Shown piece by piece: positions 803 to 29,639 of a stretch of 64,000 bases of DNA. The notes under the pieces are model-generated. The model was not told the DNA's origin, made no database searches, and saw only the letters and a program-made list of their open reading frames with translations. Location: NCBI GenBank assembly GCA_023920165.1, contig CP089276.1, positions 2,666,001 through 2,730,000 on the forward strand. The letters run 5' to 3'. Made by a program: the position numbers and the translations under genes. The DNA comes from Curvularia clavata (taxonomy: Eukaryota). How positions within the stretch are numbered: position 1 is the stretch's first letter; every line of letters begins with the position of its first letter.

Positions 803-2279
803 ATGGATTTTAGTCAACTGGACGCAATCTCTTCGGATCTTGCCCTTACTGCGAAAAGACTCAAGGCCCTATGTGAGAACAGTAGCCAAGCAATCACGAG
901 CGCCAACAATGAACCCACAAAAGACGCCCTGGTGCCTTCGGCCATGGCATACAACCTGGAGCATGAAATCGCCTTAGCACAAAGCAATCTCAACAGTATT
1001 TCCTCGCGCTTGGAAACACTCTTGGCTGGTCCTGCTAGTTTTATACGTTCAATGGCCACACAGGTAGGTGAATATGCTTTCCCGTAGGTCCCTTTTGCTA
1101 TCTTGGCGCGACTTAGCTAAGTCTGGTTCAAAATAGAGTCAACTCCTGGCATGTTTAAAATGGATGGGAGAATACCAGATCATTGCCTACATACCACTGG
1201 ACGACATTATTTCGCTTGAAGAGCTTGCCAACCTGGCTGATGTGTCAGAACACACGCTCAGCCGAGTCGTAAGAATGACTGCAACTGCAGGTTTCTTGTA
1301 CGAGCCACAGCCCGGACACGTTGCACACACTCCTTTGTCTCTATCGTTTACGACTGAGTTGTCATATTTTGATGCCGCCATGTTTTTGGCAAATAAAGTT
1401 GCTCCAGCTTCCTTCAATCTCGCCTTTTTCGCAAATGAACACGACAGTACGGCGATGCATTTGCAGTCACCACGCCCGCTAGATCTTCTTTCCCAAGAGC
1501 CACAGACCAACCGTCAATGGCAGGCCTTCCGTCAGAGTATGGGTAGCATGAGCAATTCGCTAGCATATCTCCCCAACCTGCTCAATTGGCGCAGTCTCGG
1601 GGATGCATCCGTTGTAGATGTAAGTAATCCGAGATACGATACCGGGTGAATTTTTTTTGTTCATGTTTTACTGACAAAATTCCCATCGCAACAGATCTGT
1701 GATAGTGACACTACATTGGCGCAAGACCTTGCACAGGCCGCTCCAGCACTTCGAGTCACTGTACAAACCTACGACTTTACACCCACGGAAACGGCCCTTT
1801 CCGCTTTGGGGAACAGCGACAAAGACACCATCATGAGTCAACGTGTCGTCATACAACGAAGGAAACCCACGATATCCCAGCCGATAAAGGATGCAGCAGT
1901 GTACCTTCTACATCCTTCCTTTGGTGCAGCAAGCACACGTGGCTATACCCCCAGCGAATTGGTCACCATGGAACTCAAGGCGCATTTCGGTATCCTACGA
2001 GCCAATCCAACCGCACTGTTGATTCTGGCTCCGGCAATGTTGCCCGAACCGGGGTCCGTCGCAGTCAATCTTGAGACGCAAGCAAGGTTACTCGATTTCG
2101 CAGAGACGCATCTCACTGGGCAGGGTGCTATGGAGGTATCCGAGCTGTACCGATTGACTGACAGCGTATGCGACGCGCGTGGAAGACTAATCATCAAAAG
2201 CCGGGTCCGGTCCGCTGACGGTGCAACTATTGCCTTAGTTGTCAAATATCAACCATGTGAGAGCGCAGAGCTCATCTGA
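803..2279 (+). CDS. AflJ/AflS (MdpA-like) transcriptional coactivator, O-methyltransferase-like fold
   Basis: Exons 803-1063, 1137-1619, 1695-2279 with GT..AG introns. Spliced protein has 'SQLLACLKWMGEYQIIAYIPL' and 'LSRVVRMTATAGFLYEPQPGHVAHTPLS', typical of AflJ/MdpA. Confidence 0.88.
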
Positions 2280-3296
2280 CAAACCTTACCGAGTCATTTA
2301 TCTTCTTCATATTTCCTGGGGCTTCGCATTGCATACTGTAGCATTATCTCCCCACTACAATAATGTACCAATCAACAGTGTCACCTGCATCCATGTGCCA
2401 TAGTAAATGTTGATATCGAGCTATAAGGGCGGGGCTCGCATTGTCACATCCCCATGTATACTTGAAAGTGGTAACTTATGCGTAGCTTCTGGATGCGGTC
2501 GCTACAGGCATCGCAGCGGGTTTCCCAACTGGTGTGACAGACCAGGTAGCCCCTGGTAGCATGTGCAACGGCGTGGAGTCCGCGTACCCCTCGCATTCGA
2601 GATGAGAACTGCCAAGGGTCCAACACTCGCATTGCATTCCTTCAAACCGGTAGTGGCGTCCGATAGGAAATGATGCCATCGGAGTCCAAGAAACCCAAGA
2701 TCTCGAAGATTGTAAATGTTTTGCTTATTGCCGGGATTTACTGTGGCTGTTCGACGACGACCAAGCTGACGGGCTTCCCCACATTGCTGTACCGAAATGG
2801 CTCCGACAGGAGAAAGCATGCGGCCGCTTGGCATTGTTCCACGGCACAAAAGGCTTGAGGGATCACTGCGGCTGAATTTTGCTTAGCTTACGAATACAAC
2901 CCGAATCGTGAAGCAGGCTGCCAAAAGATACGGACCGATTTGTACAACTTTGAACCGTTTCGAATCAGAACACCCCCCACACCCCCGTACATTTATTGCA
3001 TCAATGGCGTTTGTAGTGTAATTTATGGTTGCACGGGGGGCGATGACATGGTCACATGACTAGGAAGGTGGAGAATCAGCGCTACGGGGAGTATTACGGT
3101 CCAATGTGCTGGGACATGGTAACACGAGGATGTCGGTACTGGAGTGCAGAAGGGTGTTACCCCGAGGGCCGCCTCCGGGGGTTCAAAAGTAAACAAAAGA
3201 GAAGAAGTGATATAAACCGCTTTGCTGGTCGATAGCCTACGATCGACTTGACATGTCAACTCTTTCCATATCGCCCAACCTTTTTGCATCGAGACA

Positions 3297-3827
3297 ATGG
3301 CAATCGACGATACACAGCAGCACAGCAAAGGCCTCCCGCCAAGCAAGTATCTGTGTCTTACCATTCTTGGCTACCGCAAACCGGGTTTAAGCGAGGAGGA
3401 CTATCGTCGCCACATGACGGAGGTATCCGCCCCGCTCACCAAGGATCTCATGGTCAAGCACGGAATCAAGCGTTGGACGGTGATTCATAACCCCAAGGAG
3501 ACGCGAGAGCTCATGAGCCAGCTGTATGATCAGCAGATGGCAAACGTGGCTGATTACGATTGCTTCAGCCAGGTTGTTTTTGAGAGCATCGACGACTACA
3601 AGAGGCTTCGGGAGGACCCGTGGTACAAGAGCCGTCTATTCGGGGATCATGAAAAGTTTGCTGACACTCGGCGAAGCCAGTAAGTTTGTTGGCGCCGTAT
3701 GGTGAATGCGAGATGCGGGTCATGACTGATGATGCACAGGATGACTATTGGATGGATTGAGGAATGGGTGCACAATGGACAGATTCGGGAGAGTATGGAC
3801 GCACCCTGGCCGTCGTTGCAGGGCTAA
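3297..3827 (+). CDS. EthD-domain protein, probable atrochrysone carboxylic acid decarboxylase (TpcK/MdpH-type)
   Basis: Exons 3297-3679, 3740-3827. '[27 protein letters not shown]' and '[16 protein letters not shown]...DPWY...DHEKFADT' EthD signature. Confidence 0.88.
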
Positions 3828-4992
3828 TGCTGTGCAATTGTCCAATGAAGGGGCCGTGTGTTTAAATAAATTCGTGCCTAGTAAACAAATGGTACCTCGC
3901 GTGGTTAGATTATTGAATGCTGATGACGAGTGGCATGATTTGGTGCTGTGCAAAATGCCCTTGGCCAGTTTGGGAAGGGACGCGGGATGGGCTTGGATCG
4001 GACTGGCCGGCCTGGACCATCTCGCAAAACGTGACTGCTTGTGTCTAGGCCAGAACATGTGTGTTGCAGACACGTAAGATTTTGGAGCATGGCCCAGTTA
4101 ACATTTTCCTCAGGCGGGAAGGAAGCTAGCGGTAGGCAAGAATGATGGGCGGCCCGCTGGGATCCACGCTGGCAAAAGCGAGGCTGGACGTTGGAAAGTC
4201 GGGACAAGGACGCTAAGCCGTTTCGGGTTGGCGCACATGAGGCTAGTCCCGACACAGCGGCCGCCGGAGGAATACCCCGCGAGTGTTACCGAGTCGATGG
4301 AGTCGTGGGCAGGCCGGATTGCTAGGCAGACGTAAGGGTCTGGAGCTTAAGACTGGGATCGCCGGAAACAAAACGGGCAGTGCTGGCGGCTCGAGCGAGT
4401 CGAAGCAGGCTTGGGTGGGTCTGCGGCGGCGTTGACGGTGGTACTTTTTGGAGTTCGCGACACATGCAGGAGTCCCAAGTGCTAGGACAGTCTCCGGCAG
4501 CATACGGGCCTTGCTGGCCGGGGGACGTGCCAGGTTGTGGAAACGAGCAAGCCAATGATGGCCGGGGCTTACATTCCTATTCAGGGACCAACACAGTGGG
4601 CCTTATCAGGGACGTGGGCGGAGGGTACGGTGCCATGTCTCAGTGACCGGTCCGCAGCCACCAGCGTCAAGGGACCCGGCCGCAGCTGGGGCGGAAAGGC
4701 GTTTAGCTCTGCGAGGCTCCCGATTTGCTGCACGATCCCAGGAACCATATAGCAGCAAGATCGGTGATTTGGGCGTAATCGGGCGGCAAGTGACACAAGG
4801 CCGTCGACAGCGCTGAGGGCGAAGCCTGATAGGCGATGTGGTCCCCGGCAGCGCGTGATTTTGGCCGTGATCGTGGAGGAGCCTGAGACGGGCATCATGG
4901 ATACTAAAGAGTGAAGACCGTCCGAGCAGTGTGTGTAGTTCAGTGACAAAAACGCAACAAGAGGAGCGCAAGCAGCGTTGTTGATGTTGGCC

Positions 4993-6711
4993 ATGAACCC
5001 CCTCGCCAAGACGAACGACTCTGCTTCAGCCGCCGCCACCAGTTCGGCCAGTAGCCGCCCCGCCGCCTCGGCGCGAACTGCTAGCGGCGGCCCCAAGGTG
5101 CGCGACTGCTGTCAGGCCTGTGCCAAATCCAAAGTCCGCTGTACAAAGGAACGTCCAACATGCTCGCGCTGCGAGAGCAAAGGCATCGAATGTCGCTATC
5201 TTCACTGTCGTCGCCCTGGCCGGGTGCCTGGCAGCGGTGCACGACGCGCCAATCCTCCACAACCAGCCGACCGTCCCAAGAGCCAGGTCGCAGGGGCTCC
5301 AGCTGCAGGCAAACCCCTCCGCCTGCCCACGTCTCCATCGCCTTCGCCACACGACAGCAGTAGTACAGCAGACCATGGGATTGCGTCGCTGCTCCTGTCG
5401 CCCGTATCCACGACCCAGCCGCCGGATCAGACCCCAGTCTGTAACACAAACACGCATCACCGCGTCGACTCGTTCCAGACGCATTCCAGCGCCTCCGATG
5501 TCCTCGCCTCCGACCTCTTTCCCGCCCTCACCTTTGACAGCTCCCACCCCTCCTATGGCGTCTGGGACGACTGCCTGGATACGCTGGCCGGCCTCGATGC
5601 GCCCTCGTATCCTCAACTCATGGATTGGGATCCCTCGGCCACGGCTATGTCTGGAAATCTGTCCCTCGACTCGGGCTTGGGCCTAGACATGTTCGACAGC
5701 GCCAGCACCAGCGGCCCTCAGTCGCCAGCTAGCCGCCTGCTACCGCCTGATGTTTTGATGTCATCAGCCAGCACCTTTTCTACCGAGCCGAGCTCACGAG
5801 CATCGTCTTCAGAGTCACTATCGTCATCGTCATCTGCATCATCTTCTGCATCCACAGTGCCCACATCACTCTCATCTGCATCTTCGTCGTCATCGAGGCA
5901 TCCCAGCTTGCCGAGGGACGTTATGGCGCTACCAGCCCTACCCAGTAGCCAGTCATGTGGCCAGTCGATGCATCCAGAAGGAGCCCACTCGACCGTTTCA
6001 AAAGGGGGCAATGGCACCAACTGCAACTGTCTGGACCAGGCTCTAGATCTGTTCAAAGCCGTGACCAAAGACCCCTGCTCGGACGCGTCTTCCGCTTCCG
6101 GCAGCCCCCTGACTCAAGTTATTCTGAGCAAGAACAAGGAGACGATTCAGGCTATGCTGGCCCTCGTCAACTGCAGCAACTGCAGTAACGATAGGCTGCT
6201 CATCGCTGTTGCCCTGCTCATCACTATGAAGATGCTGTCCTGGTACGCTTCAGCTGCCGCTTTGACTGGCGGTTCTGGCCCCGGCCACAGCATCGAGGAC
6301 GTCTCTAGGGCTAGTAGCAGTGGGCACTCGAGCCCCGTATCAGGCACATCAGCGGCACCGGGCCGTGATCAGCAATGTCATCGACAGGCTAAACAACAGG
6401 TTTTGCGTGAACTGCATTCCGTGCAACGACTCATTACTTCACTTTCAGCCAGACTAAAGGGTCTCGAATCGGACAATACCGGCACTACCGCAAACACTAG
6501 ACTCTCACAGCTCTATGCTGCCTCCAGAGAGCCAGAGCGCAGCTTCGATGGCCGCAAGCGCATGGCACATGCCATGCCATTCCAGCCCGGAGTCGTCGAC
6601 ACGGCACTAATGCCCATCTCCACTCGGACGCTGGAGGCGGTCGAGGTGGATGCCAGGAGCAGTCTTGGCTTCTTGTCAGCAGTGGTGAGAAATGCTCTCA
6701 AGGAAAGTTGA
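4993..6711 (+). CDS. AflR/MdpE-like Zn(II)2Cys6 pathway-specific transcription factor
   Basis: CQACAKSKVRCTKERPTCSRCESKGIEC binuclear cluster, Ser-rich linker, AflR-type C-terminus ('CNCLDQAL', 'QVLRELHSVQRLI'). Start taken at ATG 4993; ATG 4984 is an alternative. Confidence 0.88.
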   Translation: MNPLAKTNDSASAAATSSASSRPAASARTASGGPKVRDCCQACAKSKVRCTKERPTCSRCESKGIECRYLHCRRPGRVPGSGARRANPPQPADRPKSQVAGAPAAGKPLRLPTSPSPSPHDSSSTADHGIASLLLSPVSTTQPPDQTPVCNTNTHHRVDSFQTHSSASDVLASDLFPALTFDSSHPSYGVWDDCLDTLAGLDAPSYPQLMDWDPSATAMSGNLSLDSGLGLDMFDSASTSGPQSPASRLLPPDVLMSSASTFSTEPSSRASSSESLSSSSSASSSASTVPTSLSSASSSSSRHPSLPRDVMALPALPSSQSCGQSMHPEGAHSTVSKGGNGTNCNCLDQALDLFKAVTKDPCSDASSASGSPLTQVILSKNKETIQAMLALVNCSNCSNDRLLIAVALLITMKMLSWYASAAALTGGSGPGHSIEDVSRASSSGHSSPVSGTSAAPGRDQQCHRQAKQQVLRELHSVQRLITSLSARLKGLESDNTGTTANTRLSQLYAASREPERSFDGRKRMAHAMPFQPGVVDTALMPISTRTLEAVEVDARSSLGFLSAVVRNALKES

Positions 6712-7751: not shown

Positions 7752-10700
7752 ATGGACACCCAGGGCGGGCCAGCCCCTGTCCCGAAAGAAATTGCCCATG
7801 AGGAGGTAAACATGTCTTCTCAATCCTCGATATCTCCCTCATCCACCGAGAAGCACCAGCGAGATGAGGTGAAAGATCTTGACAGCGCGGACCAGAGTTC
7901 GACCAACACTCAAGTTGAACAATGGCGACTGGCCAAAGATCTCAAATATTTTGATTTGAACAACCAAGCTGGTAGCCGCAAGCTTGGCGTCACATGGAAG
8001 AACCTGAGTGTGAATGTAGTTCCTGCGGATGAACGATTCAAGGAGAACATTCTCAGCCAGTTCAACCTCCTTCAGCTTGCCAAGGATCTTCGGGCGAAGC
8101 CAGCTCTGAAAACAATTCTCGAATCCAGCTCAGGATGTGTTCGTCCTGGAGAGATGCTGCTTGTCTTGGGACGTCCAGGTTCCGGATGTACAACATTGCT
8201 CAAGATGCTAGCTAACAAGCGGAATGGGTATGTGACAAACCATTGTACTCATGACCGAGCTAACTAAATCCATAAGATACGCACAAGTGGACGGCGACGT
8301 TTACTTTGGGTCACTCAACGCCGAAGAAGCCAAACAGTACTCCGGCAGCATTGTTATCAACAATGAGGAGGAGTTATTCTATCCGACCCTCACTGTCGGC
8401 GAAACCATGGACTTTGCTACCCGCCTAAATATGCCCGCGAACATAGAAGGAAATGGCGCTAGCCGCACCGAAGCCCGACGCAACTTCAAGCAATTCCTCC
8501 TCAACTCGATGGGCATTGCACACACAGAAGGCACTAAGGTCGGTGATCCATACGTAAGAGGAGTCTCTGGTGGTGAGCGGAAGCGAGTTTCCATCATTGA
8601 AACTCTGGCAACACGTGGTAGCGTGGTATGCTGGGACAACTCAACACGAGGCTTGGACGCCTCCACTGCCCTTGAGTACGTACGCGCGCTACGTTGTCTC
8701 ACAGACACCATGGGCATGTCCACCATCGTCACTCTATACCAGGCTGGCAACGGTATCTATGATCTGTTTGATAAGGTGCTGGTTCTCGACCAAGGCAAGC
8801 AGATCTACTATGGCTCTCGTGAGGAGGCTCGACCCTTCATGGAAAGCCTTGGCTTTGTCTGCGGTGACGGAGCCAACGTCGCGGATTTCCTCACTGGTGT
8901 CACTGTGCCCAGTGAACGGCAAATCAAATCCGGTTTCGAGACGACATTCCCTCGTAGGAATACCGATATACGAGATGCCTATGCGCAGTCGACGATTAAA
9001 GCCAAGATGGACCAGGAACTCGAATATCCCTTCACGGACGAGGCGAAGACTACCACAACGACATTTGTCGAATCCGTAAGAGCAGAGAAATCAGGACAAC
9101 TTCCAAAGTCCTCCCCCATGACGGTATCATTCCTCGACCAAGTCAAAGCTTGCGTGGTTCGCCAATACCAGGTGTTATGGGGAGACAAGCCGAGTCTGAT
9201 CATGAGGCAAGCCACCAACATCATCCAAGCTTTGATTTCTGGATCGCTGTTCTATAATGCGCCAGACAACACTGCTGGGTTGTTCCTCAAGTCCGGAGCT
9301 CTCTTTCTCTCGCTTCTGTTCAATGCCCTTTTCACCCTGTCAGAAGTCAACGACTCGTTTGTTGGTCGTCCAATCTTAGCAAAGCAGAAGAACTTTGCCT
9401 TCTTCAATCCCGCTGCTTTCTGCATTGCCCAGGTCGCCGCAGATATCCCCATTCTCATCTTTCAGACTGCCTGTTTTGTCCTGATAGTCTATTGGATGAC
9501 GGCGTTGAAGGCGACTGCTGCCGCATTCTTTACCAACTGGTTCCTTGTCTACGTCGTCACTCTCGCCATGACTGCCATGATGAGGACGATCGGTGCGGGC
9601 TTCCCCTCTTTCAACTCTGCGTCAAAAGTGTCTGGCTTTGCCATCACCGCAACCATTGTCTATATGGGTACGTGATCGCATCTTTGACCTACAAAAATAT
9701 TTGCTGACATCTCTAGGATACGAAATTCCGAAGCCAGACATGCACCCATGGTTCGTTTGGGTCTACTGGATTAATCCACTATCCTACGGATTTGAGTCTC
9801 TTATGGCAACTGAGTACGAAGGAACCGAGATCCCGTGCGTCTACGACAACCTGATTCCAAACTATCTTCCTCAGTACCAAGACTCAAGCGCACAATCCTG
9901 TGCGGGCATCCGCGGTGCACGACCTGGCGCAACTTCGCTCACCGGACAAGAGTATCTAGACAGTCTGTCATACTCCCCGTCCAATGTCTGGCGCAACGTG
10001 GGTATCCTTTTCGCATGGTGGGCTTTGTTCATCGCCTGCACAATCTTCTTTACTCTTCGCTGGAACGACACTTCCAGCTCGAGCACTACATATATTCCAC
10101 GTGAGAAGCAGAAGTATGTTCAAAGACTTCGCGCATCTCAGAAGCAGGATGAGGAGTCTCTGCAAAGCGAAAAGATCACACCCAACAACGACACACTTGG
10201 CAAGCCGGATGGGTCGCAAGACAGACTCGACAAGAGCCTCATTCGCAACACGTCCATCTTTACTTGGCGAAACCTCACTTACACCGTCAAGACTCCGTCA
10301 GGTGATCGTACTCTGCTCAACAACGTCCACGGCTACGTCAAGCCCGGAATGTTGGGTGCGCTCATGGGATCCTCTGGTGCTGGCAAAACTACTCTTCTCG
10401 ACGTTCTCGCTCAACGGAAGACTGCTGGAACCATTAAAGGTGAAATCTTGGTTGATGGTCGACCACTTCCAGTCTCTTTCCAGCGATCCGCTGGCTATTG
10501 CGAGCAACTTGATGTTCACGATGCTTACTCTACTGTTCGAGAAGCCCTCGAGTTCTCGGCTTTGCTCCGTCAAAGCCGTGACACGCCTGTCGAGGAGAAG
10601 CTCGCGTATGTGGACACCATCATTGATCTGCTAGAACTACACGACCTGGAGAACACACTTATTGGCACTGTCGGTGCTGGACTTTCAGTCGAGCAGCGCA

Positions 10701-12163
10701 AGCGAGTCACTATCGGAGTGGAGCTTGTTTCCAAGCCATCTATCCTCATCTTCCTTGACGAACCCACCTCTGGTCTAGACGGTCAAGCAGCATTCAATAC
10801 CGTTCGCTTCCTGAGGAAGCTTGCCGACGTCGGGCAGGCAGTTCTCGTTACTATCCACCAGCCTTCAGCCTTGCTGTTTGCTCAGTTCGATGTCCTCCTT
10901 CTCCTCGCCAGCGGCGGCAAGACCGTCTACTTTGGTGAGATCGGCGAGAATGCAGAGAAGATCAAGGAGTATTTTGGTCGCTATGATGCACCATGCCCCA
11001 TCGGTGCCAATCCCGCCGAGCACATGATCGACGTCGTCAGTGGCTACCACCCCAGCGGCAAAGACTGGCATGAAGTCTGGCTCAGTTCCCCAGAGTCAGC
11101 AGCTCTGAACCAGCAGTTGGAGGAGATAATCTCCGATGCAGCTAGGAAGGAGCCCGGCACCAAGGACGATGGACACGAGTTTGCGACCACGTTCTGGACT
11201 CAGACCAAGCTCGTCTTGCATCGCATGAATGTCGGTTTCTTCCGCGATACAGCCTACTTCAACAACAAGCTCCTTCTCCACGGCGGTGTTGCTTTCTTCA
11301 TCGGCTTCACGTTCTGGCAAATTGGTCACTCGGTCGGCGAGCAAAAGTACATTCTGTTCTCCATCTTCCAATATATCTTCGTCGCACCAGGAGTCATTGC
11401 TCAGCTGCAACCTATCTTCTTGGAACGACGCGATGTCTACGAGACGCGCGAGAAGAAATCTAAGATGTACTCATGGCAAGCATTCGTTACCGCCTTGATT
11501 GTATCTGAGATGCCGTACCTCGTCATCTGCGCCGTCCTTTACTATCTCGTCTTCTACTTCGCGTCTGGCCTTCCTACCGATCCCAGCAGCGCGGGTGCCG
11601 TCTTCTTCGTTTTCCTAATCTACCAGTTCATCTACACCGGATTCGGCCAATTCGTGGCCGCATACGCACCAAACGCCGTCTTCGCCTCCCTCGTAAACCC
11701 TCTTCTCCTCGCTGTCTTGTGCTGCTTCTGCGGCGTCCTCATTCCCTATGACAACATTCAAGAATTCTGGCGCTACTGGATCTACTACCTCGATCCCTTC
11801 AAGTACCTCATCGGTTCGCTCCTCGTCTTCACCGACTGGGATTGGAAGATCGATTGCAAAGATAGCGAGTTTGCGATCTTCAATCCTCCTGGCGGCGGAA
11901 ACCAGACGTGTGGAGAGTACTTGGAGGCGTGGTTGAGTGGGCCAGGTGCACGCACGAATCTTGTCAATCCCGATGCGACGTCTGACTGCCGCGTCTGCCA
12001 GTACACATGGGGAAGAGACTACTTGGCTACGGTCAATCTCACTGAAAAGTACTTTGGATGGAGAGACGCTGGTATTTGCGTTATCTTTTCGCTGTCTGGC
12101 TATGCGCTCGTCTATCTTCTCATGAAGTTGAGGACTAAGGCTAGCAAGAAGGCTGAGCAGTAA
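7752..12163 (+). CDS. Full-size ABCG/PDR-type ABC transporter
   Basis: Introns 8228-8276 and 9668-9716. NBD1 [33 protein letters not shown]2 [34 protein letters not shown]; two TM domains. Confidence 0.95.
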
Positions 12164-18214: not shown

Positions 18215-18573
18215 GGTGGCCATTGTGGTTGCTAAGTGATGTGAGGGCAAGTGGGATACGTCGCACGACTGTACTGCGTTGCTGCGATAGCTCGCTCTGG
18301 TTTGAATATATGAGGGGGAAGTTTATTGAGTCTTTTTGATAAAATCAAGAGATTTGTACCGTCGGGCCCGAAGGAAATCCCTAAAGTGACGCTCGCAAGG
18401 GGAGCCGACAATGTAAGAATGTGTTATTAATGCATGGGCACTGATTCAAATCCTTAAGAAGGGCGTTTCTCGTGACTGTATCAACAATTTAAAATAATAT
18501 CGAGGAACCGATGAGTATCCTTCTAAGCCGGTTGTTTTCGAGCGGTGCAAATGGGGTCGGATGTTGCGTTTGC

Positions 18574-20027: not shown

Positions 20028-21023
20028 TCAGGCGCTAGCACGTGTAACAGGGTATTGCACTTGCTGCATGGGAGCAGTGTGCTGCTGTGCATTCCCAATG
20101 AGAAACCACCTTTTCTGGCCAGCACGAACCTGGAAACCAACTTTGCCGTCGCCAGCGAGCTTCCGAAGCACCTCTTCAATGAATGGCTCCAAAGCCAAGG
20201 TACGTGTTGCCTCGTCCACTGAGCTTCCATATATATTGTCAACAATATCTCGAACGACTGGTCGGCTTTGACCATAATCGTGGAGATTACGCAACGCTCT
20301 AATGACTTGTTTCTCTCTTCTATATTTCGAAGACAACTCTCGGCTAATCTTCGTGTTCAGATCGTCGATGGTGATACCGTGAGCTGGATGGCCAGCCCGA
20401 CATTTCTGATCCATCATCTTGTGCAGGCTAGACATGAATACGCCGAGGTCCTCCACCGCACTAGTGCCGGTGCCGAGAATGTTGTCTCCAGTGAACATGG
20501 AGTTCTCTTCCTTGAGGATGAAGCACATGTGATCTTCCGAGTGACCGGGAGAGTGCAACGCCACAACGGTCGCTCCCTCAACACAAAACTCTTGTCCATC
20601 ATAGATGTCTTGTTGCCCTGGCTCGGGATCGTTTTTGTAAATGTGGTCTTTCAGGTGCGGATACATTCGAATGAGATCTGGCACTCCTCCAGAGTGGTCG
20701 CCATGCCAGTGTGTGATGAGGACATACTTGATGCTAATGTTTCGAGACTCCAAAGTTGATGCAAGCAGTTTGGCGTACTCTGGCTCTCCCCCAGAAGTAT
20801 CAATCAGTATGCGGGAGGAACCGGTGCCGATCAAAAACGTGTTGGTGCCTTGAAAGGTGAACTTTCCCGGGTTTTGTCCCCGCACTCGAATGACTCGTTC
20901 TGTGACTTGTTCTACATCGGGTATCGGTTCAAGGTTGGCCGTTTGACCCTTCAAATAGTCTTCGAAAGCGCAGATGTTAAGTGACTTATTAATCTGCTTG
21001 TAGCCTCCCTTATCATCCGACAT
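20028..21023 (-). CDS. Metallo-beta-lactamase-type thioesterase (MdpF/ACTE-like)
   Basis: Intronless 331 aa; 'GQNPGKFTFQGTNT', THWHGDH metal motif, 'HSPGHSEDH', 'FTGDNILG'. Confidence 0.93.
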   Translation of the reverse strand: MSDDKGGYKQINKSLNICAFEDYLKGQTANLEPIPDVEQVTERVIRVRGQNPGKFTFQGTNTFLIGTGSSRILIDTSGGEPEYAKLLASTLESRNISIKYVLITHWHGDHSGGVPDLIRMYPHLKDHIYKNDPEPGQQDIYDGQEFCVEGATVVALHSPGHSEDHMCFILKEENSMFTGDNILGTGTSAVEDLGVFMSSLHKMMDQKCRAGHPAHGITIDDLNTKISRELSSKYRREKQVIRALRNLHDYGQSRPVVRDIVDNIYGSSVDEATRTLALEPFIEEVLRKLAGDGKVGFQVRAGQKRWFLIGNAQQHTAPMQQVQYPVTRASA

Positions 21024-21907: not shown

Positions 21908-24900
21908 ATGGAGGTTGTATACGTCAGTAACGAATTCCCCAAGGATGACCTTGGAGAAATCCTCAGGCAATTGCATAGCCAAAGCAAGACTACCAACCAT
22001 GAGACCCTAGCACGCTTCACCAGAGATGCGACCCAGGCAGTCAAGAAGGAGATTGAAAAGCTCCCCTCGAACTTGAAGAAGCAAATACCTCCGTTCGAAT
22101 CCCTCGTCTCTTGGGCAGAACAGAAAGAGCTTCGCGAAGGTGAACTATGCGGCGCAATCGATGGCGTTTTACTGATACTTGTTCAACTCTCCGTGTATAT
22201 TTGGTAAGTCAGTTCAGCCTTACTACTGTTTCTCTGGCTAATCTAAGTAGTAATGTTGAGAATGGCAACGAGCCAGCATCTGCGGCTGGTGAAAAGCACA
22301 TCACGGGCTTGGGCGTTGGTTTGCTCTCAGCTGCCGCAATTGCTTTGGCTCGAGATGTATCTGAGATACCTTTCTATGGCGCGAAAGCGATTGAAATCGC
22401 CTTCCGCATGGGGATTCACGTACAAGGGATCTCGCACAACTTGGAGGCTCGCAACCTTGATGAGCCACCCAAGACATGGGCTTATGTGGTCCACAACGTG
22501 GATCCTGAGCAGACAAAGAAGGATCTCGAAGCATTCCATGAAGCAGTACCCAGTTCTGATACCAGTCGCATCTTCATCAGTGCTGTTAGTCGCACCTCTG
22601 TTACGATCAGTGGTCCGCCTTCAAAGCTTGAAAACCTTTTCAAGAAAGCTACAGCATTCAGAGACGCCAAGTCAATTGCATTGCCTGTTTACGGAGGACT
22701 GTGCCATGCACCACACATTTACGACTCGCAAGATGTAGACGCTATCGTACAAGACATCGTGGCTTCTTCAGATCTACTGCGTCCGCAAGACGAACCGAAA
22801 CTACCACTCTCGTCAACAAGCACCGGCATCCCGTATACAGCCTCTAATGCAACACAGCTTTTCAAGAGCATTGTGTTCGAGCTCCTGACAAAAGCCATTG
22901 AGTGGGACAAAGTTATTGCGCAAGAGGTCCAATACGCCAAGGACAACAAGCAAACTCAAATTACACTCTCCTGCTTTGGAAACTCCATTCCCTTGAACGA
23001 TCTTCGTTCTGAGTTGCAGAAAGCCGTCAAAGATGTTTCTGTTTCCTTGAACAACTACATGTCAAAACTTCGTCAGGATGCCACTGAAGCCACTACTCCT
23101 CGAGGAACAAAACAGTCCAAGCTCGCCATTGTCGGGATGTCCTGCAGATTCCCAGGCGGTGCAACCGACACTGAGAAATTCTGGGAACTGCTTGAGGCCG
23201 GACTGGATGTGTCTCGTGTGATACCTCCGGATCGATTTGACATCAAGACACATTACGACCCAGAAGGAAAAGACCTCAACAAGACAATGACCCAATATGG
23301 ATGCTTTATTGATGAGCCTGGTCTGTTCGACGCGAGCTTTTTCAATATGTCCCCTCGCGAGGCAATGGTCGTTGATCCCCAAATGCGGCTCTCGCTAGTC
23401 ACTGCATACGAGGCATTGGAAAGAGCAGGTTATGTCGCCAATAGGACTCAATCTACCAAGCTTGAGCGCATTGGAACGTACTACGGCCAAGCAGCTGATG
23501 ACTATCGCGAGGTAAATCAAGGACAAGAAGTCGGAACCTACTATATCCCGGGTGGATGCCGTGCTTTTGGACCAGGTCGTATTAACTATTTCTTCAAATT
23601 CGCTGGCCCAAGCTACAGCATTGACACTGCCTGTTCTTCGGGACTTGCGGCAATTGAAGTGAGTAGATGATGTTCATGAATACCGATAATGATGTATTGA
23701 TTGTTTTATAGGTCGCTTGTAATGCTCTCTGGAACGGTGAGATCGATATGGCTGTAGCAGGCGGCGTCAACATCCTCACGAACCCCGATGGTTTTACTGG
23801 TCTCTGCAAAGGCCACTTTTTGACCAAGGGCCACAACGCCTGCAAGACTTGGGATGCCACCGCTGATGGCTACTGCCGTGCTGACGGTGTAGGATCAATT
23901 GTTATCAAGAGGCTAGAAGATGCACAAGCTGATAACGATAACATCCTTGGAGTTGTTCTCGCTGCGGGCACTAACCACTCCGCCGAGGCTGTCTCCATCA
24001 CCCACCCCCATGCAGGACATCAGGCATATTTGGCGCGCCAAATCCTCAGACAAGCAGCTGTCAATCCTTTGGATGTTTCATATGTAGAGCTTCATGGAAC
24101 TGGCACACAAGCAGGAGATTACGAGGAGATGAAAGGTGTAATGGATGTGTATGCACCAAACACCTTCCCAAGCCGCCGATCTGACCAGAAGCTGCACATT
24201 GGAAGCGTCAAATCAAACGTTGGTCATGGAGAGTCGGTTGCTGGAACTACAGCACTCATTAAGGTCTTGACAATGTTGCAAAAGGGCGCCATTCCTCCAC
24301 ACATCGGCATCAAGACTGAGATGAACCCGCGCCTACCAAAGGACCTGGAGCAGCGAAATGTCGCAATTCCGTTCACTATGACTGAATGGAAGAAGGATCC
24401 AAAGAGAAAGCGCATTGCAGCAGTCAACAACTTCGGAGCTGCTGGTGGCAACACCATGATGATTCTGGAGGAAGCGCCCTCGGTTGAGGTGGCTCGCGAA
24501 AAGGAAACCAGGCCAACACATGTCGTTGCCGTGTCTGCGAAGACCAAGACTTCTCTTCGCAACAATATCGAGCGTCTGATTGCGTACCTCGACAAAAACC
24601 CGGACGCCGTCATTTCGGATGTCGCTTATACCACTACTGCACGCAAATACCACCACTCATACAGAGTCGCGGTCAGCGGTACTGATGTTGCTTCAGTCAA
24701 AAAGCAGCTGACGACACAGTTGAACAAGGTGGATTCTTTGAAGCCACTGAACAAGACCAATCCACCTTCCGTGGCGTTCGTTTTCACGGGTCAGGGTGCC
24801 TCCTACCAGTCGATGGATCTTGAGCTATATCACGAGTCACCGGTCTTCAGAGAGCATATTCAATACCTTGACAAGCTTGCTCAAGCCCAAGGCTTCCCCT

Positions 24901-27463
24901 CCTTCATCCCAGCTCTCGATGGCTCTTACCCTCGCGATCACGAACATGCTCCTGTTGTTACCCAACTGGCGCTGGTATGTCTGGAGATTGCGTTGGCGCA
25001 TTACTGGGCTTCCCTGGGTGTCAAGCCTGACGTTGTCATGGGACATTCTCTAGGAGAGTACGCCGCTATGCATGTCGCTGGAGTCATCAGTGCCAACGAC
25101 GCTATCTACATGGTTGGTTCTAGGGCCCTGATGCTTCAGAAGTCATGCGAAGCAGGTAGTCACTGCATGATGGCTGTTCGCGCATCTCTAGAATCCATTA
25201 TCGCGGCATCGAATGGCAAGCCCCACACTTTAGCCTGTATCAATGGTCCGACCGATACAGTGCTAAGCGGTACCAAGGCACAGATGGATGACATCGCAGT
25301 AGATCTCGAGGCGGCTGGTTTCCGCTGCATCAAGCTCAACGTTGCGTTTGCATTCCACTCCGAACAGGTTGACCCTATCCTTGATGAATTCGAGGCGATC
25401 AGCAAGAGCGGTGTCATATTCCACGAACCCAAGTTGCCTGTAATTTCACCCCTACTTGGCAAGGTTGTCTTTGATGCGCGAACATTGAACGCCAGTTATG
25501 TGCGCAATGCTACTCGAGCGACTGTCGACTTCCTTTCTGCCGCAAGGAATGCTACTGAAGTGTCGATCATCAGCGATGAAACCGTTTTTATGGAAATGGG
25601 CCCTCACCCTGTTTGTGTCGGATTCATCAAGTCGATTCTCCCATCGGTAAAGACTGCTGTGCCATCGATCCGTCGTGGCGACAACAACTGGAAGACTATC
25701 TCCGAGAGTGCTGCAGCTATTCATCTCGATGGCGTCGAGCTAGACTGGAACGAATTCCACCGTCCTTTCTCTAGTGCGGTGCGTCTGCTGGATCTCCCGA
25801 CATATGCCTGGGACGAGAAGAACTTCTGGATCCAATATAATGGCGACTGGTGTTTGACCAAGGGTAACACTTACTACGACAAGAAGGTTGAGAAGGTAGA
25901 ACCCGCCGTCAGCAATACCAAGAAGTACGAGTCTTTGAGCTCTTTGGTACAAAACATCATCGAAGTCGACGTGAAGGGAGACATGGGCAAAGTAGTCATG
26001 CAATCAGACATGATGCAGAAGGACTTCTTGGCTGCCGCCCACGGACACCAGATGAACAACTGTGGTGTTGTGACATCGGTAAGTTCTTGTCCATCTTTAA
26101 TCTTGCGATTTTCATATTCTTCTCTTGGACCTCACTAACAAGTTATCAGTCCATCCATGCCGATATCGCATTTACTTTGGGAGAGTACCTGTATCGCAAG
26201 TTCTATCCAAAGACCAAGCGGGTCGACATGAATGTCACCAACCTCCACGTGACGAGTGCTTTGATCGCCAAGAAGCACTCCATGGATACGCCGCAGAATA
26301 TTCAAGTCACTGCAAGCACAAACAACATCAAGAGCGGTGTTTTGGACTTGACATGGCAAAATGTCGGTGAAGACGGAAGCTGTTCGGAGCCATTCGCGAC
26401 AGCCAATCTCGAGTATGGCAATGCGGAAGAGTGGCTATCGAGCTGGAGTTTCGTGTCTCATTTGGTTCAGCACCGCATCGAGGCCCTAGAACAACTAGCT
26501 GCTGAGGGCAAGGCCAACCGCCTTTCTCGCAACATGGCCTACACTCTTTTCGCAAAGAATTTGGTTGACTACGCGGATAAATACCGAGGCATGCAGTCTG
26601 TCGTCATGAACGATCTGGAAGCATTCGCGGATGTCAAGCTTACCGACAAGGTCGACAGCGGAACATACACTGTACCGCCGTACTTCATCGACAGTGTGGC
26701 CCATCTTGCAGGATTCATTATGAACTGTTCCGACAGCATCGACACAACCAACAACTACTGTGTCACGTCCGGATGGAAGTCGATGAGATTCGCTGAGCCC
26801 TTGACCCCTGGAGCCAGATACCGGTCTTACGTTAAGATGATCCCTACTAAGGAAGATCCATCAGTCTACCTTGGTGATGTGTACATTCTGAACGCTGAAG
26901 GCAATGCTATCGTAGGTATGGTGGGCGGCATTCACTTCCGCCGCTTCCCACGCATCCTCCTCAACCGTTTCTTCACCGCTCCACAGCCCACAAAGGGAAC
27001 AACAGGTCAGCAAGCAAAGGCTGCTCCTGTAGAGAGCAAGCCAGCTGTCAGCAAGTCTGCACCACGCAGTGTGGAAGCTCCTCCTGTTGTCCAAGAAATC
27101 TCTGTTGATACTAAGGAAGAGGACACTCAGTCTTCGGAAAGCGACTTGGATGACCACGACACACCTTCGGTATCTTCAGAGAACACATCCGCCACTAGTG
27201 TTGATGTTCCCGTTGCTGCAGCCCCTGCAAGCGACAGCACATTCGGCAAAGCACTTGTGCTCATTGCCAATGAAACTGGCATCGATAGCTCAGAGCTTAC
27301 GGACGATGCTGAGTTTGCGAACCTGGGTATTGACAGTCTCATGTCCTTGGTTTTGTCCGAGAAGTTCCAGAAAGAGCTTAATGTAAAGGTGAATGGTAGT
27401 TTGTTCCTTGATTACCCAACTATTGGTGATCTTCGGGAGTGGTTGGAGAAGTACTATGGTTAG
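21908..27463 (+). CDS. Non-reducing polyketide synthase SAT-KS-MAT-PT-ACP without TE (group V, MdpG/atrochrysone carboxylic acid synthase-like), about 1794 aa
   Basis: Introns 22204-22250, 23659-23711, 26079-26149. KS DTACSS and HGTGT, MAT GHSLG, PT 'HGHQMN', ACP 'LGIDSLMS'; the protein ends right after the ACP. Confidence 0.95.
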
Positions 27464-27714
27464 TCATAGGTAATTTCTAAATTGTCTGGATTGTTGAATA
27501 TTCCAAGGGATGTTTTGTTGGTTTTCTTTCATTTTGATAGTTGGTATTTGGTTGGTTTGTTCTGTCTAATTACTTTCCTAGAATGTACGTAGTATCTTGG
27601 TGAATAGAAAACTTTTCGATAACTGGTTGTCTGAAAAGATCTGATTGTTACCTGCCATTTATCGAATAGCAAGCTCATTAGCCTTAACATGTTGGCACCA
27701 TTACAAGTTCAACT

Positions 27715-29639
27715 TTACTTCTTGGGAGGGCCGAGCTTGTACTGAGCCGGTCTCTCATACTTCGCCAAATCTCTCAACGCTTCTTCGCCTTCCCGGATGA
27801 TAGTCTGTTTAATTTCCTCGCTTCTAGGGATAAATCTGACTTTGAAGGGCTTGGGGCGCCAATTTGATCCGTTTCTATATCATTTTCAGTCTGGTTGCTG
27901 CACGATCAAACGGCGAGTGGCGATTCGCCGCAAGGGATTGCTTACGTATAGCTGAAGATATCAACAGGCATCTCTTTCCCTGTCTTCTGGTCAATAGCAG
28001 GCTGCACGCGATACGCCCACAACAATCTTGCAACACTGAGATGCGTTCCCTGCTCAGCTAGAGCTTGACCAGCGCAACTTCTCCTTCCCCATCCAAAAGT
28101 CATGTATCCCTTCTCACCTGGGAACGGCCTACGGTCTTCCGTATCAAGGAACCTCCTCGGATTGAAACGATCCGGGTCTGGAAACTCGCGCTCATTGTGA
28201 TGAATGGCCCATACGTTTCCTTGTATCCAAGTACCCTTTGGTATATAGTACCCATTCCAGTAGTCGTCTTGGATAGGCGCGTGAGGCTTTCCTCCGACGA
28301 TAGCAACTGAGCGCCAGCGGAAAACTTCTTTCACGAATGCTCGTACGTAAGGTAGCTCATCTTCGAGTGCTGGACTTCTTGTGTGGCCTACCACGCGGTC
28401 AAGCTCGTCCCATGCAGGCTGTAGGGTCTCGGGGAAGGCGCGCATAGCCATTACAGCTGTAATAAGAGTACTGCTAGAAGTATCTGCACCTGCACCAAAG
28501 AGATTGGAAGCAAGACTAGAAATCTCTCCATCAGTTAAATGGTACTGGGGTGCTTCGCGGAAGATAAACTTTGCATAGTTCTCTTCTGGACTCTGCTGCG
28601 CTTCTTCCGCCAGGGCATAGAAGAAATTATCACGACTGTACTTGGTTTTGTGAGGTGATTTAAAGTTTTTCATCCAGGGCGACATCCAACGTGGAAGCCT
28701 TGCTAGCCCTGTAATCTGGTTAAAATGAGATCGTTCTGAGATTTCGTACGGCTACTTACATGGAAAAGTCTCTAAGATTCGTGGGAAATCTTTCGCTACG
28801 ACAGCATAATGAGCAGCAGTTTGCATATGCGCAATCACTTCGGTTATCAAGGGGTCTTGACTGTCTGAGATGCGCCGCGCAAATCCAACTATAGAGACGA
28901 CGCTCGCTGCATAGCGTTCGAAGTGTGCGACGAATTGGTCAGGTGTGCTCAAAAGATCGTATACTACCACTTTATTCTCATTATCTTGGAAGTTTTGGTA
29001 ACTCAGGACCTAGAAAGAATCAGCACTGACCCACTACCCACGTCTTGTGTGCATCTCTTACTTTTTGTATGCCAACGCCGTGATGCGTAATTTTACGCAA
29101 GTTGCGGAATCTTTCCCTTTGCTCGTTGGTGTACGTGTATTTGTGTATAAGATTTTCTTGGCCATTCATCAATTCGCCGAATAAGAGCATAGCTGGCCTG
29201 GAATTGTAAACGTTGGAACGTTTGACAAGGATCTCATCGGCCGCCCATGCATCATTAATCCAGATTGTGGGCCGTCTGCACAAAATCAGCTCAGTTTACA
29301 CTCGAGTGACGATGACAACCAACCTTCCAATCCAAAACGTGATCACTGGGGAATCGTAATCTTTCGAGAGTTGCTCTATCATGTACCAGGGCTTTTCTTC
29401 CGGCAGATTAAGGCTGTTCCCAACGATCGGCCAAGGCAATGGCCCAGGTGGCTGCCAAACCGTCAGCGTCAAGCACACACGGACATGGGATTAATAAATT
29501 CAGATGATACCATTCGTCTTCTCAGGTACAGCATGCGGCCGTAATCTAAAATAAGGGCAACAACTCCTAGCCAGAGCAGCCATATAGCCAACGAGCCAGA
29601 AGCCGGGAAATGCCAACCTCCTGATGTCTGAGGTTCCAT
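27715..29639 (-). CDS. Cytochrome P450 monooxygenase (cluster tailoring enzyme)
   Basis: Multi-exon. N-terminal TM helix then PPGPLPWP, I-helix AGADTSS, EVFR (ExxR), PDRFNPRRF, heme motif FGWGRRSCAG; last exon ends ...LGPPKK*. Confidence 0.92.

What the first reader, a model, noticed from the sequence alone, without database searches (positions are those of the whole stretch)
803..29639. Twelve-gene anthraquinone cluster with deoxygenation module, two anthrone oxygenases and a P450, but no ring-cleavage or methylation genes
Seen: 12 contiguous genes. Established: a group V TE-less NR-PKS plus MbL-thioesterase, EthD decarboxylase and anthrone oxygenase make emodin; MdpK/MdpC/MdpB-type reductases and dehydratase convert emodin to chrysophanol. 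No MdpL/AflY-type ring-cleaving enzyme, O-methyltransferase or prenyltransferase lies in the window. Inference: the end products stay anthraquinones, e.g. the hydroxylated chrysophanol pigments helminthosporin/cynodontin known from Curvularia/Bipolaris, or dimers. The cluster may extend left of the window.
Basis: partly seen in the sequence, partly recalled or inferred. Interest (0 to 1): 0.8.

Follow-up and report, generated by a model that had tools for sequence, protein, structure and literature searches.

The report
Curvularia chrysophanol-type anthraquinone gene cluster
This is a real, transcribed twelve-gene fungal pigment cluster that most likely makes emodin, then chrysophanol, then hydroxylated anthraquinones, but clusters of this kind are already described, including the one around its well-studied reductase.

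Summary
Window 803-29639 carries 12 intact genes. They encode an AflJ/MdpA-like co-activator, an EthD decarboxylase, an AflR-like regulator, a PDR ABC transporter, an SDR, an NAD_binding_10 reductase, a scytalone-dehydratase homologue, two anthrone oxygenases, an MBL thioesterase, a TE-less SAT-KS-AT-PT-ACP PKS and a P450.

The organism is Curvularia clavata or a near-identical strain: two gene products match its named proteins 442/442 and 179/179. The SDR is 267/270 identical to crystallised 17beta-HSDcl of C. lunata. Papers report that this enzyme reduces emodin hydroquinone and that its gene lies in a group V1 nrPKS cluster.

Contigs of four public runs carry the introns spliced out, so the genes are transcribed. 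None of the 231 ORFs of at least 85 aa in the window matches a ring-cleaving oxidase, O-methyltransferase or prenyltransferase. Accession numbers indicate the same 12-gene block in four Bipolaris species, and partial numbering in B. maydis fits it.

The P450 belongs to a Pleosporales-only clade beside an ancient conserved P450 family. No listed relative was named ClaM, and ClaM itself could not be fetched. Hydroxylation to helminthosporin or cynodontin is the best guess and is untested. The left border could not be checked.

Verdict: new member of a known kind, moderate-to-low interest.

The parts
803..2279 (+). g1: AflS/AflJ/MdpA-like transcriptional co-activator, 442 aa. Exons 803-1063, 1137-1619, 1695-2279.
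   Evidence: No Pfam match. Relatives are named AflJ, mdpA and tpcD co-activators. The spliced model is 442/442 identical to Curvularia clavata yc1106_04614.
3297..3827 (+). g2: EthD-domain decarboxylase (MdpH1 type), 156 aa. Exons 3297-3679, 3740-3827.
   Evidence: Pfam EthD 1.1e-20. The model is 140/156 identical to the B. sorokiniana EthD protein EMD62934. The intron is inferred, not seen in RNA.
4984..6711 (+). g3: AflR-like Zn2Cys6 pathway regulator, about 575 aa.
   Evidence: Pfam AflR 5.2e-16 and Zn_clus 2e-4. The start ATG at 4984 is my choice.
7752..12163 (+). g4: PDR-type ABC transporter, about 1437 aa. Inferred introns 8228-8276 and 9668-9716.
   Evidence: Pfam ABC_trans_N (22.7 bits, below its 25.4 cut-off), ABC_tran twice, ABC2_membrane twice and PDR_CDR. 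The introns are inferred from GT..AG sites and frame only.
12993..13805 (-). g5: MdpC-type anthrol reductase, the orthologue of 17beta-HSDcl. 270 aa, no intron.
   Evidence: 267/270 identical to PDB 3is3, 17beta-hydroxysteroid dehydrogenase. The next solved relatives are versicolorin reductases and T3HN/T4HN reductases. RNA contigs cover it.
14551..15336 (+). g6: NAD(P)H-binding oxidoreductase, candidate anthraquinone reductase (MdpK/AgnL4/ClaK type), 261 aa.
   Evidence: Pfam NAD_binding_10 3.2e-18 and NmrA 6.6e-7. No solved relative at E<=0.001. Contigs cover it. Orthology to AgnL4 was not tested.
16104..16708 (+). g7: scytalone-dehydratase-family dehydratase (MdpB type), 162 aa, three exons.
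   Evidence: Pfam Scytalone_dh 4.5e-42. Both introns are seen as GT..AG joints in four runs. Model.
17626..18223 (-). g8: divergent anthrone-oxygenase/DUF1772 protein, 179 aa, two exons.
   Evidence: Pfam Anthrone_oxy 37.8 bits against a cut-off of 27.3. Both exons are 100% identical to C. clavata yc1106_04621. The intron joint is in X1 and X9. The named ones among its 26 relatives are Dothideomycetes.
18849..19462 (+). g9: anthrone oxygenase with the stronger family match, 173 aa, two exons.
   Evidence: Pfam Anthrone_oxy 4.3e-19, 69.1 bits. The intron joint is in four runs. No significant blastp similarity to g8 (best E 0.055).
20028..21023 (-). g10: metallo-beta-lactamase-type thioesterase, 331 aa, with a 5'-leader intron near 21194-21274.
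   Evidence: Pfam Lactamase_B 2.7e-17. An HxHxDH motif is visible in the translation. The nearest solved chain is beta-lactamase-like protein 2.
21908..27463 (+). g11: TE-less non-reducing PKS, SAT-KS-AT-PT-ACP, 1794 aa, four exons.
   Evidence: Pfam SAT, ketoacyl-synt, Ketoacyl-synt_C, Acyl_transf_1, PS-DH and PP-binding. It ends 6 residues after the ACP match, and the P450 gene on the other strand ends 252 bases further on. All three introns are seen as joints, and one 5526-base RNA contig spans the gene.
27715..29639 (-). g12: cytochrome P450, 547 aa, six exons. Function open; proposed anthraquinone hydroxylase.
   Evidence: Pfam p450 1.4e-46. Five CT..AC joints are in X1, three of them also in X15. 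It is 80% identical over the full length to B. sorokiniana P0001. It sits in a 13-row Pleosporales-only clade.

Best explanation
The window holds the Curvularia clavata copy of the group V1 (emodin-family) anthraquinone cluster that contains the 17beta-HSDcl gene.

Proposed pathway:
- The TE-less NR-PKS g11 builds the octaketide and the MBL thioesterase g10 releases atrochrysone carboxylic acid.
- The EthD protein g2 decarboxylates it to emodin anthrone.
- An anthrone oxygenase (g9, the better family match) gives emodin.
- g6 reduces emodin to its hydroquinone, the SDR g5 reduces the keto tautomer, and the dehydratase g7 removes water. The result is chrysophanol (hydroquinone).
- The P450 g12 then hydroxylates the ring para to a peri-hydroxyl, once or twice, giving helminthosporin or islandicin and then cynodontin, the red pigment reported from Curvularia.
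- The second, divergent DUF1772 protein g8 may re-oxidise an anthrone or hydroquinone intermediate after deoxygenation.
- g3 and g1 (an AflR/AflS-type pair) switch the cluster on, and the ABC transporter g4 exports the pigment.

Shown here: gene content, intact reading frames, splicing and transcription, near-identity of g5 to the characterised enzyme, and a collinear 12-gene block in Bipolaris. Taken from the literature on homologues: the steps up to chrysophanol. Inference only: the roles of g12, g8 and g4, and the end product.

My odds: emodin to chrysophanol about 0.85; a hydroxylated monomeric anthraquinone as end product about 0.5.
For: Domain content.

g5 is 267/270 identical to 17beta-HSDcl. 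The review PMC9890505 and PMC9867772 (passages read) list that enzyme with MdpC as an anthrol reductase acting on reduced emodin. The review adds that its gene lies in a group V1 nrPKS cluster.

The SAT domain reads GLGVG where other PKSs have GxCxG. The review calls this C-to-G change universal in atrochrysone carboxylic acid synthases.

No ring-cleaving oxidase, O-methyltransferase or prenyltransferase was found among the 231 ORFs scanned. The genes to the right are housekeeping types: a sugar dehydratase, a GH38 mannosidase and kinases.

Spliced contigs at 99% identity or more, in 4 of 4 runs laid, show that g7-g12 are transcribed.

Accession numbers indicate the same 12-gene block in B. 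sorokiniana (EMD62924-62935; GGP41_004971-004982), B. zeicola and B. oryzae. B. victoriae has consecutive XP numbers for its EthD and AflJ genes, and B. maydis numbering fits as far as seen.

Cynodontin is reported from C. lunata and helminthosporin from C. eragrostidis (passage and reference list of PMC9777749).

The P450's relatives carry automatic names of phenol para-hydroxylases (yanC; '3-hydroxyphenylacetate 6-hydroxylase'). These are leads only. That these enzymes hydroxylate para to a phenol is my recollection.
Against: No experiment links this cluster to any compound.

The P450 could not be compared with ClaM, RugG or other dimerases. Automatic names are weak evidence, and other relatives in the same searches are named fumitremorgin C synthase, COX2 and O-methylsterigmatocystin oxidoreductase.

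Pyrenophora species make catenarin, helminthosporin and cynodontin, yet no Pyrenophora protein appeared in the cluster-type P450 clade among the 120 hits listed. Only a conserved-family paralogue did.

In Pyrenochaeta sp. the P450 clade member and the g8 relative lie on contigs of different lengths, 526,982 and 552,901 bases.

C. lunata also makes the bisanthraquinone cytoskyrin A.

Related pathways keep a ring-cleaving gene at an unlinked locus, and nothing left of base 1 could be seen.
Confidence: 0.5

Rival explanations
1. The P450 g12 is an oxidative phenol-coupling enzyme like ClaM or RugG, and the cluster's end product is a bianthraquinone (a dimer of chrysophanol or a close derivative).
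For: In the closest characterised ring-intact pathway (cladofulvin), the only P450 is the dimerase ClaM, and the putative rugulosin cluster also carries a P450 homologue of it (passages of PMC9890505). C. lunata makes a modified bisanthraquinone, cytoskyrin A. This cluster has no ClaN-type second oxidoreductase and no other tailoring enzyme.
Against: None of the 120 listed relatives (57-85% identity) carries the name ClaM, and none is from Fulvia or Cladosporium. The cluster-type P450s form a Pleosporales-only clade beside an ancient conserved family that reaches basidiomycetes, which is not what an orthologue of a Mycosphaerellaceae dimerase would show. The cytoskyrin-related monomer lunatin carries a methoxy group and no methyl, which does not fit a cluster with a deoxygenation module and no O-methyltransferase. 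Chrysophanol dimers from Curvularia or Bipolaris did not turn up in the papers read.
Confidence: 0.15
2. The 12 genes are only the anthraquinone half of a split pathway. An unlinked (or just-left-of-window) MdpL/AgnL3-type ring-cleaving oxidase carries chrysophanol on to benzophenones or xanthones.
For: The rubellin paper states that the cladofulvin and rubellin candidate clusters have unlinked miniclusters with a BVMO homologous to mdpL (section read). Throckmorton 2015 lists a second group V1 PKS with a predicted benzophenone product in B. sorokiniana and B. oryzae. The review mentions xanthones from B. sorokiniana. The window starts only 802 bases before g1.
Against: No such gene lies in the 64 kb. 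The count of genes between the P450 and the AflJ-like gene is the same, 12, in the Bipolaris species whose numbers were seen. Ring-intact chrysophanol derivatives are the classical pigments of these genera.
Confidence: 0.15
3. The pathway stops at chrysophanol or emodin. The P450 does something else, such as oxidising the methyl group to aloe-emodin-type products, or it is a passenger gene that is not part of the pathway.
For: P450 joints were seen only in X1 and partly in X15. The P450 clade member is apparently unlinked from the g8 relative in Pyrenochaeta sp.. Its nearest conserved relatives look like a core-metabolism family.
Against: P450-PKS adjacency is kept in Curvularia and in B. sorokiniana, B. 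oryzae and B. zeicola, with near-adjacency in Exserohilum. The cluster-type clade has longer branches than the conserved family, as expected after recruitment to a new role. In run X1 it is spliced and present together with the other cluster genes.
Confidence: 0.15

Closest known systems
Gene cluster around 17beta-HSDcl in Curvularia lunata (Furtges et al. 2017, ChemBioChem 18:77; only its title and citations were seen, the paper is not held)
   Same: It is the orthologous locus. g5 is 267/270 identical to the crystallised enzyme. The review PMC9890505 places that gene in a group V1 nrPKS cluster and gives it an MdpC-like role.
   Different: The species is different (C. clavata-like). I could not read that paper's gene list, so I cannot say whether it includes the P450, the second DUF1772 gene or the ABC transporter. 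My memory of its abstract is '17beta-HSDcl and ten other genes', and that figure is recalled, not checked.
Cladofulvin (cla) cluster of Cladosporium fulvum
   Same: It has PKS, MBL-TE, decarboxylase, anthrone oxidase, ClaK/ClaC/ClaB deoxygenation genes and a single P450, has no ring cleavage in its pathway, and its end product keeps the anthraquinone rings (table and text of PMC9890505).
   Different: cla has ClaN, and its P450 ClaM is a proven dimerase. Here there is no ClaN-type gene, there are two DUF1772 genes and an ABC transporter, and the P450 was not shown to be a ClaM relative.
Monodictyphenone (mdp) cluster of Aspergillus nidulans and agnestin (agn) cluster of Paecilomyces variotii
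   Same: They share the emodin module, the MdpK/MdpC/MdpB (AgnL4/L6/L8) route to chrysophanol, and AflR/AflS-type regulators.
   Different: mdp and agn carry the ring-cleaving MdpL/AgnL3 and go on to benzophenones and xanthones. No such gene lies in this window.
Bipolaris and Setosphaeria group V1 clusters with predicted product 'Other anthrone' (Throckmorton et al. 2015, PMC4591646)
   Same: By accession numbers these are the collinear orthologues: EMD62925, EUC45162, EUC29913, ENI07798 and EOA88807 sit next to or near the P450 orthologues.
   Different: That paper gives only a bioinformatic product class, with no product and no role for the P450.

Membership tests
Emodin-family (group V1) anthraquinone cluster | NR-PKS with SAT-KS-AT-PT-ACP and no thioesterase domain | tested here: met
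   Pfam domains. The 1794-aa model ends just after the ACP, and the next gene, on the other strand, ends 252 bases further on.
Emodin-family (group V1) anthraquinone cluster | Discrete metallo-beta-lactamase-type thioesterase beside the PKS | tested here: met
   g10 has Lactamase_B at 2.7e-17 and starts 885 bases before the PKS start, divergently oriented. An HxHxDH motif is visible.
Emodin-family (group V1) anthraquinone cluster | EthD-type decarboxylase and anthrone oxygenase | tested here: met
   EthD 74.9 bits; Anthrone_oxy 69.1 bits (g9) and 37.8 bits (g8), all above the cut-offs.
Emodin-family (group V1) anthraquinone cluster | SAT motif GxCxG changed to GxGxG, called universal in atrochrysone carboxylic acid synthases by PMC9890505 | tested here: inconclusive
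   The SAT region reads GLGVG. I did not align it with PksA, so the position is judged by eye (for the criterion).
Chrysophanol deoxygenation module (MdpK/MdpC/MdpB = AgnL4/L6/L8) | MdpC-type SDR that reduces emodin hydroquinone | tested here: met
   267/270 identical to 17beta-HSDcl. Its activity on reduced emodin is stated in PMC9890505 and PMC9867772. No assay was done here.
Chrysophanol deoxygenation module (MdpK/MdpC/MdpB = AgnL4/L6/L8) | Scytalone-dehydratase-family dehydratase | tested here: met
   Scytalone_dh 4.5e-42, matching positions 39-154 of the 160-position profile on the last exon alone.
Chrysophanol deoxygenation module (MdpK/MdpC/MdpB = AgnL4/L6/L8) | AgnL4/MdpK-type anthraquinone reductase | tested here: inconclusive
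   The domain class fits (NAD_binding_10). No AgnL4, MdpK or ClaK sequence was at hand for comparison, and there is no solved relative.
ClaM/RugG-type anthraquinone-dimerising P450 | Sequence membership of the ClaM/DmxR5/NsrP/AacuE clade | tested here: inconclusive
   None of the 120 listed relatives, of 268 found, is named ClaM. Ten clusters and ten more distant representatives were read in full, and none bears such a name. ClaM itself could not be fetched, and the 2016 paper is not held.
Xanthone/benzophenone branch (mdp, agn, ged, tpc types) | MdpL/AgnL3/GedK-type ring-cleaving oxidase in the cluster | tested here: not met
   0 of 231 ORFs of at least 85 aa match such a family. An unlinked copy or one left of base 1 cannot be excluded.
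AflR/AflS regulator pair | AflR-domain Zn2Cys6 factor plus AflS/AflJ-like co-activator | tested here: met
   g3 has AflR 5.2e-16 plus Zn_clus. g1's relatives are named AflJ, mdpA and tpcD.

The most novel reading that the evidence does not exclude
The cluster P450 arose in Pleosporales by duplication of an ancient, widely conserved fungal P450 that probably hydroxylates small phenols. It was then recruited as an anthraquinone para-hydroxylase that turns chrysophanol into helminthosporin or islandicin and then cynodontin. The divergent second DUF1772 protein g8 would be a new, post-deoxygenation anthrone or anthrahydroquinone oxidase specific to ring-intact chrysophanol pathways of Dothideomycetes; a relative, RCC_01328, exists in Ramularia collo-cygni, close in number to a gene examined with the rubellin candidate cluster. 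Together they would give the first genetic basis for the classical 'Helminthosporium' pigments.
Probability: 0.35. Interest if true: 0.5.

Novelty: new member of a known kind. Interest (0 to 1): 0.3.

Why it matters
The cluster gives a physiological setting to 17beta-HSDcl, an enzyme studied for years as a steroid dehydrogenase. It is also the obvious candidate locus for cynodontin and helminthosporin, pigments known from Curvularia, Bipolaris and Pyrenophora for which my four literature searches found no characterised genes. If the P450 is a para-hydroxylase of anthraquinones, it would add a tailoring activity not yet assigned in the emodin family. The cluster architecture itself is well known, so the gain is incremental.

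Tried and rejected
- No whole genome is held for the window, so the sequence left of base 1 and any unlinked ring-cleavage gene could not be examined.
- Furtges 2017 and Griffiths 2016 are not held, so the published C. lunata gene list and the ClaM details were not seen.
- The literature search returned only taxonomy papers. Searches found no paper assigning a gene to cynodontin, helminthosporin, islandicin or catenarin hydroxylation. One search found the Bipolaris PKS accessions only in Throckmorton 2015. One search found no analysis of this cluster in C. clavata.
- The earlier-findings index was empty.
- The search of 1.84 billion representatives with the B. sorokiniana P450, followed by name look-up of 10 of the 150 listed, gave only generic or automatic names and did not settle the ClaM question.
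- The Atlas look-up gave only automatic cluster names.
- Solved-structure searches gave mammalian CYP2/CYP1/CYP17 for the P450 and nothing for g6. Neither is informative on function.
- In runs X4 and X9 no contig lay on 27626-30000, the P450. Contig absence is not evidence that the gene is silent.
- Considered and rejected: that g8 and g9 are recent duplicates. They share no significant similarity.
- Considered and rejected: an AflN-style P450 ring opening without a Baeyer-Villiger-type partner. No precedent turned up in the papers read.

Full report
WHAT IS THERE

The window is fungal DNA with short introns. A six-frame ORF survey and Pfam scans find twelve genes between 803 and 29639.

In order, the genes are:
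- g1 803-2279 (+): AflJ/AflS/MdpA-like co-activator. It has no Pfam match, but its relatives carry those names.
- g2 3297-3827 (+): EthD decarboxylase.
- g3 4984-6711 (+): AflR-domain Zn2Cys6 regulator.
- g4 7752-12163 (+): PDR-type ABC transporter.
- g5 12993-13805 (-): short-chain dehydrogenase.
- g6 14551-15336 (+): NAD_binding_10 oxidoreductase.
- g7 16104-16708 (+): scytalone-dehydratase family.
- g8 17626-18223 (-) and g9 18849-19462 (+): two Anthrone_oxy/DUF1772 proteins.
- g10 20028-21023 (-): metallo-beta-lactamase-type hydrolase.
- g11 21908-27463 (+): SAT-KS-AT-PT-ACP polyketide synthase that stops right after its single ACP.
- g12 27715-29639 (-): cytochrome P450.

All twelve spliced models read from M to a stop.

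WHOSE DNA IT IS

The spliced g1 model is 442/442 identical to Curvularia clavata protein yc1106_04614. Both exons of g8 are 100% identical to yc1106_04621. The seven-tag distance between those two tags equals the distance from g1 to g8, so the public annotation also counts these as consecutive genes.

g5 is 267/270 identical to 17beta-hydroxysteroid dehydrogenase of Curvularia lunata, PDB 3is3.

TRANSCRIPTION

I laid contigs of four public runs on 12000-30000. One run is on record as oligo-dT RNA; the others are guessed to be RNA. All laid pieces were at least 99% alike.

The contigs carry joints with GT..AG ends on the plus strand or CT..AC ends on the minus strand, in each case on the strand of the gene concerned:
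- two introns in g7 (four runs);
- one in g8 (X1, X9);
- one in g9 (four runs);
- three in the PKS, where one 5526-base RNA contig spans the gene;
- five in the P450 (X1; three of them also in X15);
- leader introns before g6 and g10.

Spliced forms can only come from RNA, so the genes are transcribed and 13 introns are confirmed. The introns of g1, g2 and g4 lie outside the laid stretch. They are inferred from splice sites, frame and homologues.

WHAT IS ABSENT

One search listed all 231 stop-to-stop ORFs of at least 85 aa in the 64 kb. All were scanned against Pfam: 45 and 69. None matches a questin-oxidase/MdpL-type family, an O-methyltransferase or an aromatic prenyltransferase.

To the right of the P450 come an NDP-sugar 4,6-dehydratase, a GH38 alpha-mannosidase, a PAS/kinase/receiver protein, an FHA kinase, a HET protein and a PRKCSH-domain protein. 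These are housekeeping types, so the right border is at the P450. The left border cannot be judged: only 802 bases precede g1 and no genome is held.

CONSERVATION

Full names and accession numbers of relatives show a matching block in other species:
- B. sorokiniana ND90Pr: P450 EMD62924, PKS EMD62925 (Throckmorton 2015), g8 orthologue EMD62928, EthD EMD62934 and AflJ-like EMD62935. That is twelve consecutive numbers with the same spacing as here.
- The same holds for strain GGP41 (004971 to 004982) and for B. zeicola (EUC29912 to 29923).
- B. oryzae fits as far as seen (EUC45161 to 45171).
- In B. victoriae the EthD and AflJ-like genes have consecutive XP numbers.
- B. maydis has AflJ ENI07788, EthD 07789, g8 07795 and PKS 07798.

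Consecutive numbers are an indirect sign of adjacency; I did not see the DNA. Throckmorton et al. predicted 'Other anthrone' for these PKSs.

HOW IT MOST LIKELY WORKS

The steps to emodin and chrysophanol follow established homologues summarised in the review PMC9890505 (passages read):
- PKS plus MBL thioesterase gives atrochrysone carboxylic acid.
- The EthD decarboxylase gives emodin anthrone.
- The anthrone oxygenase gives emodin.
- The AgnL4/MdpK-type reductase gives emodin hydroquinone.
- The MdpC-type SDR and the MdpB-type dehydratase give chrysophanol.

The SDR step rests on near-identity to an enzyme that two papers list as an anthrol reductase acting on dithionite-reduced emodin. The SAT domain shows GLGVG, which fits the C-to-G change that the review calls universal in these synthases; I judged the position by eye.

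What happens after chrysophanol is inference. The only further oxygenase candidates are the P450 and the extra DUF1772 protein. C. lunata is reported to make cynodontin, which is chrysophanol plus two hydroxyls, each para to a peri-hydroxyl. Helminthosporin is reported from C. eragrostidis. I therefore favour hydroxylation.

THE P450

Its largest exon finds 268 relatives at E<=1e-20, of which the best 120 are listed.
- The closest are Bipolaris (85% on this exon, 80% over the full length), Exserohilum, Alternaria, Parastagonospora, Ascochyta, Pyrenochaeta and Corynespora.
- Behind them comes a very widely conserved family of about 555-567 aa, at 57-67% identity, across several ascomycete classes.

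I built a tree from 56 of the 120 hits plus the window model; 64 hits were left out for speed. The cluster-type proteins form a 13-row, Pleosporales-only clade (SH-aLRT 100) with longer branches. It stands apart from the 44-row conserved family, whose branching roughly follows taxonomy.

Searching all representatives shows that the conserved family reaches basidiomycetes and Pezizales at 40-53% identity. This looks like recruitment of a duplicated core P450 into the cluster.

Automatic names among the relatives (yanC; '3-hydroxyphenylacetate 6-hydroxylase') point to phenol para-hydroxylases, as I recall their chemistry. Other relatives carry unrelated automatic names. No relative is named ClaM, but I could not fetch ClaM, so dimerase membership is untested rather than excluded.

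THE TWO DUF1772 PROTEINS

g8 and g9 share no significant similarity (best blastp E 0.055), so they are not a recent duplication. g9 matches the family profile much better (69 against 38 bits) and is my candidate for the emodin anthrone oxidase.

g8 has only 26 relatives at E<=0.001 among 139 candidates. The named ones are Dothideomycetes. They include RCC_01328 of Ramularia collo-cygni, which is close in number to Rcc_01325, a gene examined with the rubellin candidate cluster.

The known clusters tabulated in the review list one anthrone oxidase each, so the second one is a real difference. Its role is open.

AGAINST MY READING
- No Pyrenophora protein showed up in the cluster-type P450 clade, although Pyrenophora species make catenarin, helminthosporin and cynodontin.
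- The Pyrenochaeta clade member seems unlinked from the g8 relative.
- C. lunata also makes a bisanthraquinone.
- Related pathways keep a ring-cleaving gene elsewhere in the genome.

COMPARISON AND NOVELTY

The locus is the orthologue of the cluster around 17beta-HSDcl. A 2017 paper, seen only by title and citation, analysed that cluster in C. lunata. The locus is also the orthologue of the Bipolaris 'Other anthrone' clusters of 2015.

It works like the early part of the mdp, agn and cla pathways. Like cla, it keeps the rings intact. It differs from cla in three ways: it lacks a ClaN-type gene, it has two DUF1772 genes and an ABC transporter, and its P450 is of uncertain kinship.

It is a new member of a known kind. 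Its product and the roles of g12 and g8 remain to be shown.

Noticed in passing
window 16019-16085: A minus-strand spliced joint (CT..AC, skips 67) in contigs of runs X4 and X15 lies between g6 and g7, where no gene is modelled and no ORF has a Pfam match. It may be an antisense or non-coding transcript overlapping the long leader of g7.
   Followed up: no
window 14205-14260 and 21194-21274: Introns lie in the 5' leaders of g6 (plus strand, X1 only) and g10 (minus strand, X1 and X4), upstream of the start codons.
   Followed up: partly
window 40033-40812 (+): An ORF with a Hva1_TUDOR domain (3.1e-19) sits in a G+C-rich stretch of 40-44 kb (GC 0.59) whose GC skew swings from +0.275 to -0.228.
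   Followed up: no
window 61184-61474 (-): A short ORF has a weak Kp4 killer-toxin-family match (24.9 bits, below the 27.8 cut-off).
   Followed up: no
window 56130-58500 (-): A HET-domain gene lies in at least two exons. Together with kinases, a mannosidase and a PRKCSH-domain gene it makes up the non-cluster right half of the window.
   Followed up: no
window 30787-31925 (+): An NDP-sugar 4,6-dehydratase gene lies directly beside the P450.
   Followed up: no
relatives P0297/P0300 (Pyrenophora tritici-repentis): The AflJ-like and EthD genes (EDU45253, EDU45252) are 21-22 accession numbers away from the group V1 PKS EDU45231. The Pyrenophora counterpart may therefore be split or stretched.
   Followed up: no
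relatives P0023, P0240, P0311 (Stemphylium lycopersici): Very long models (1156, 930 and 1023 aa) join a P450, or an SDR plus an AflR domain, with neighbouring genes. These are probably merged gene calls in that annotation.
   Followed up: no
run X9 on window 12000-27600: An oligo-dT metatranscriptome labelled as a tick metagenome holds spliced transcripts of this fungus's cluster at 99% identity or more.
   Followed up: no
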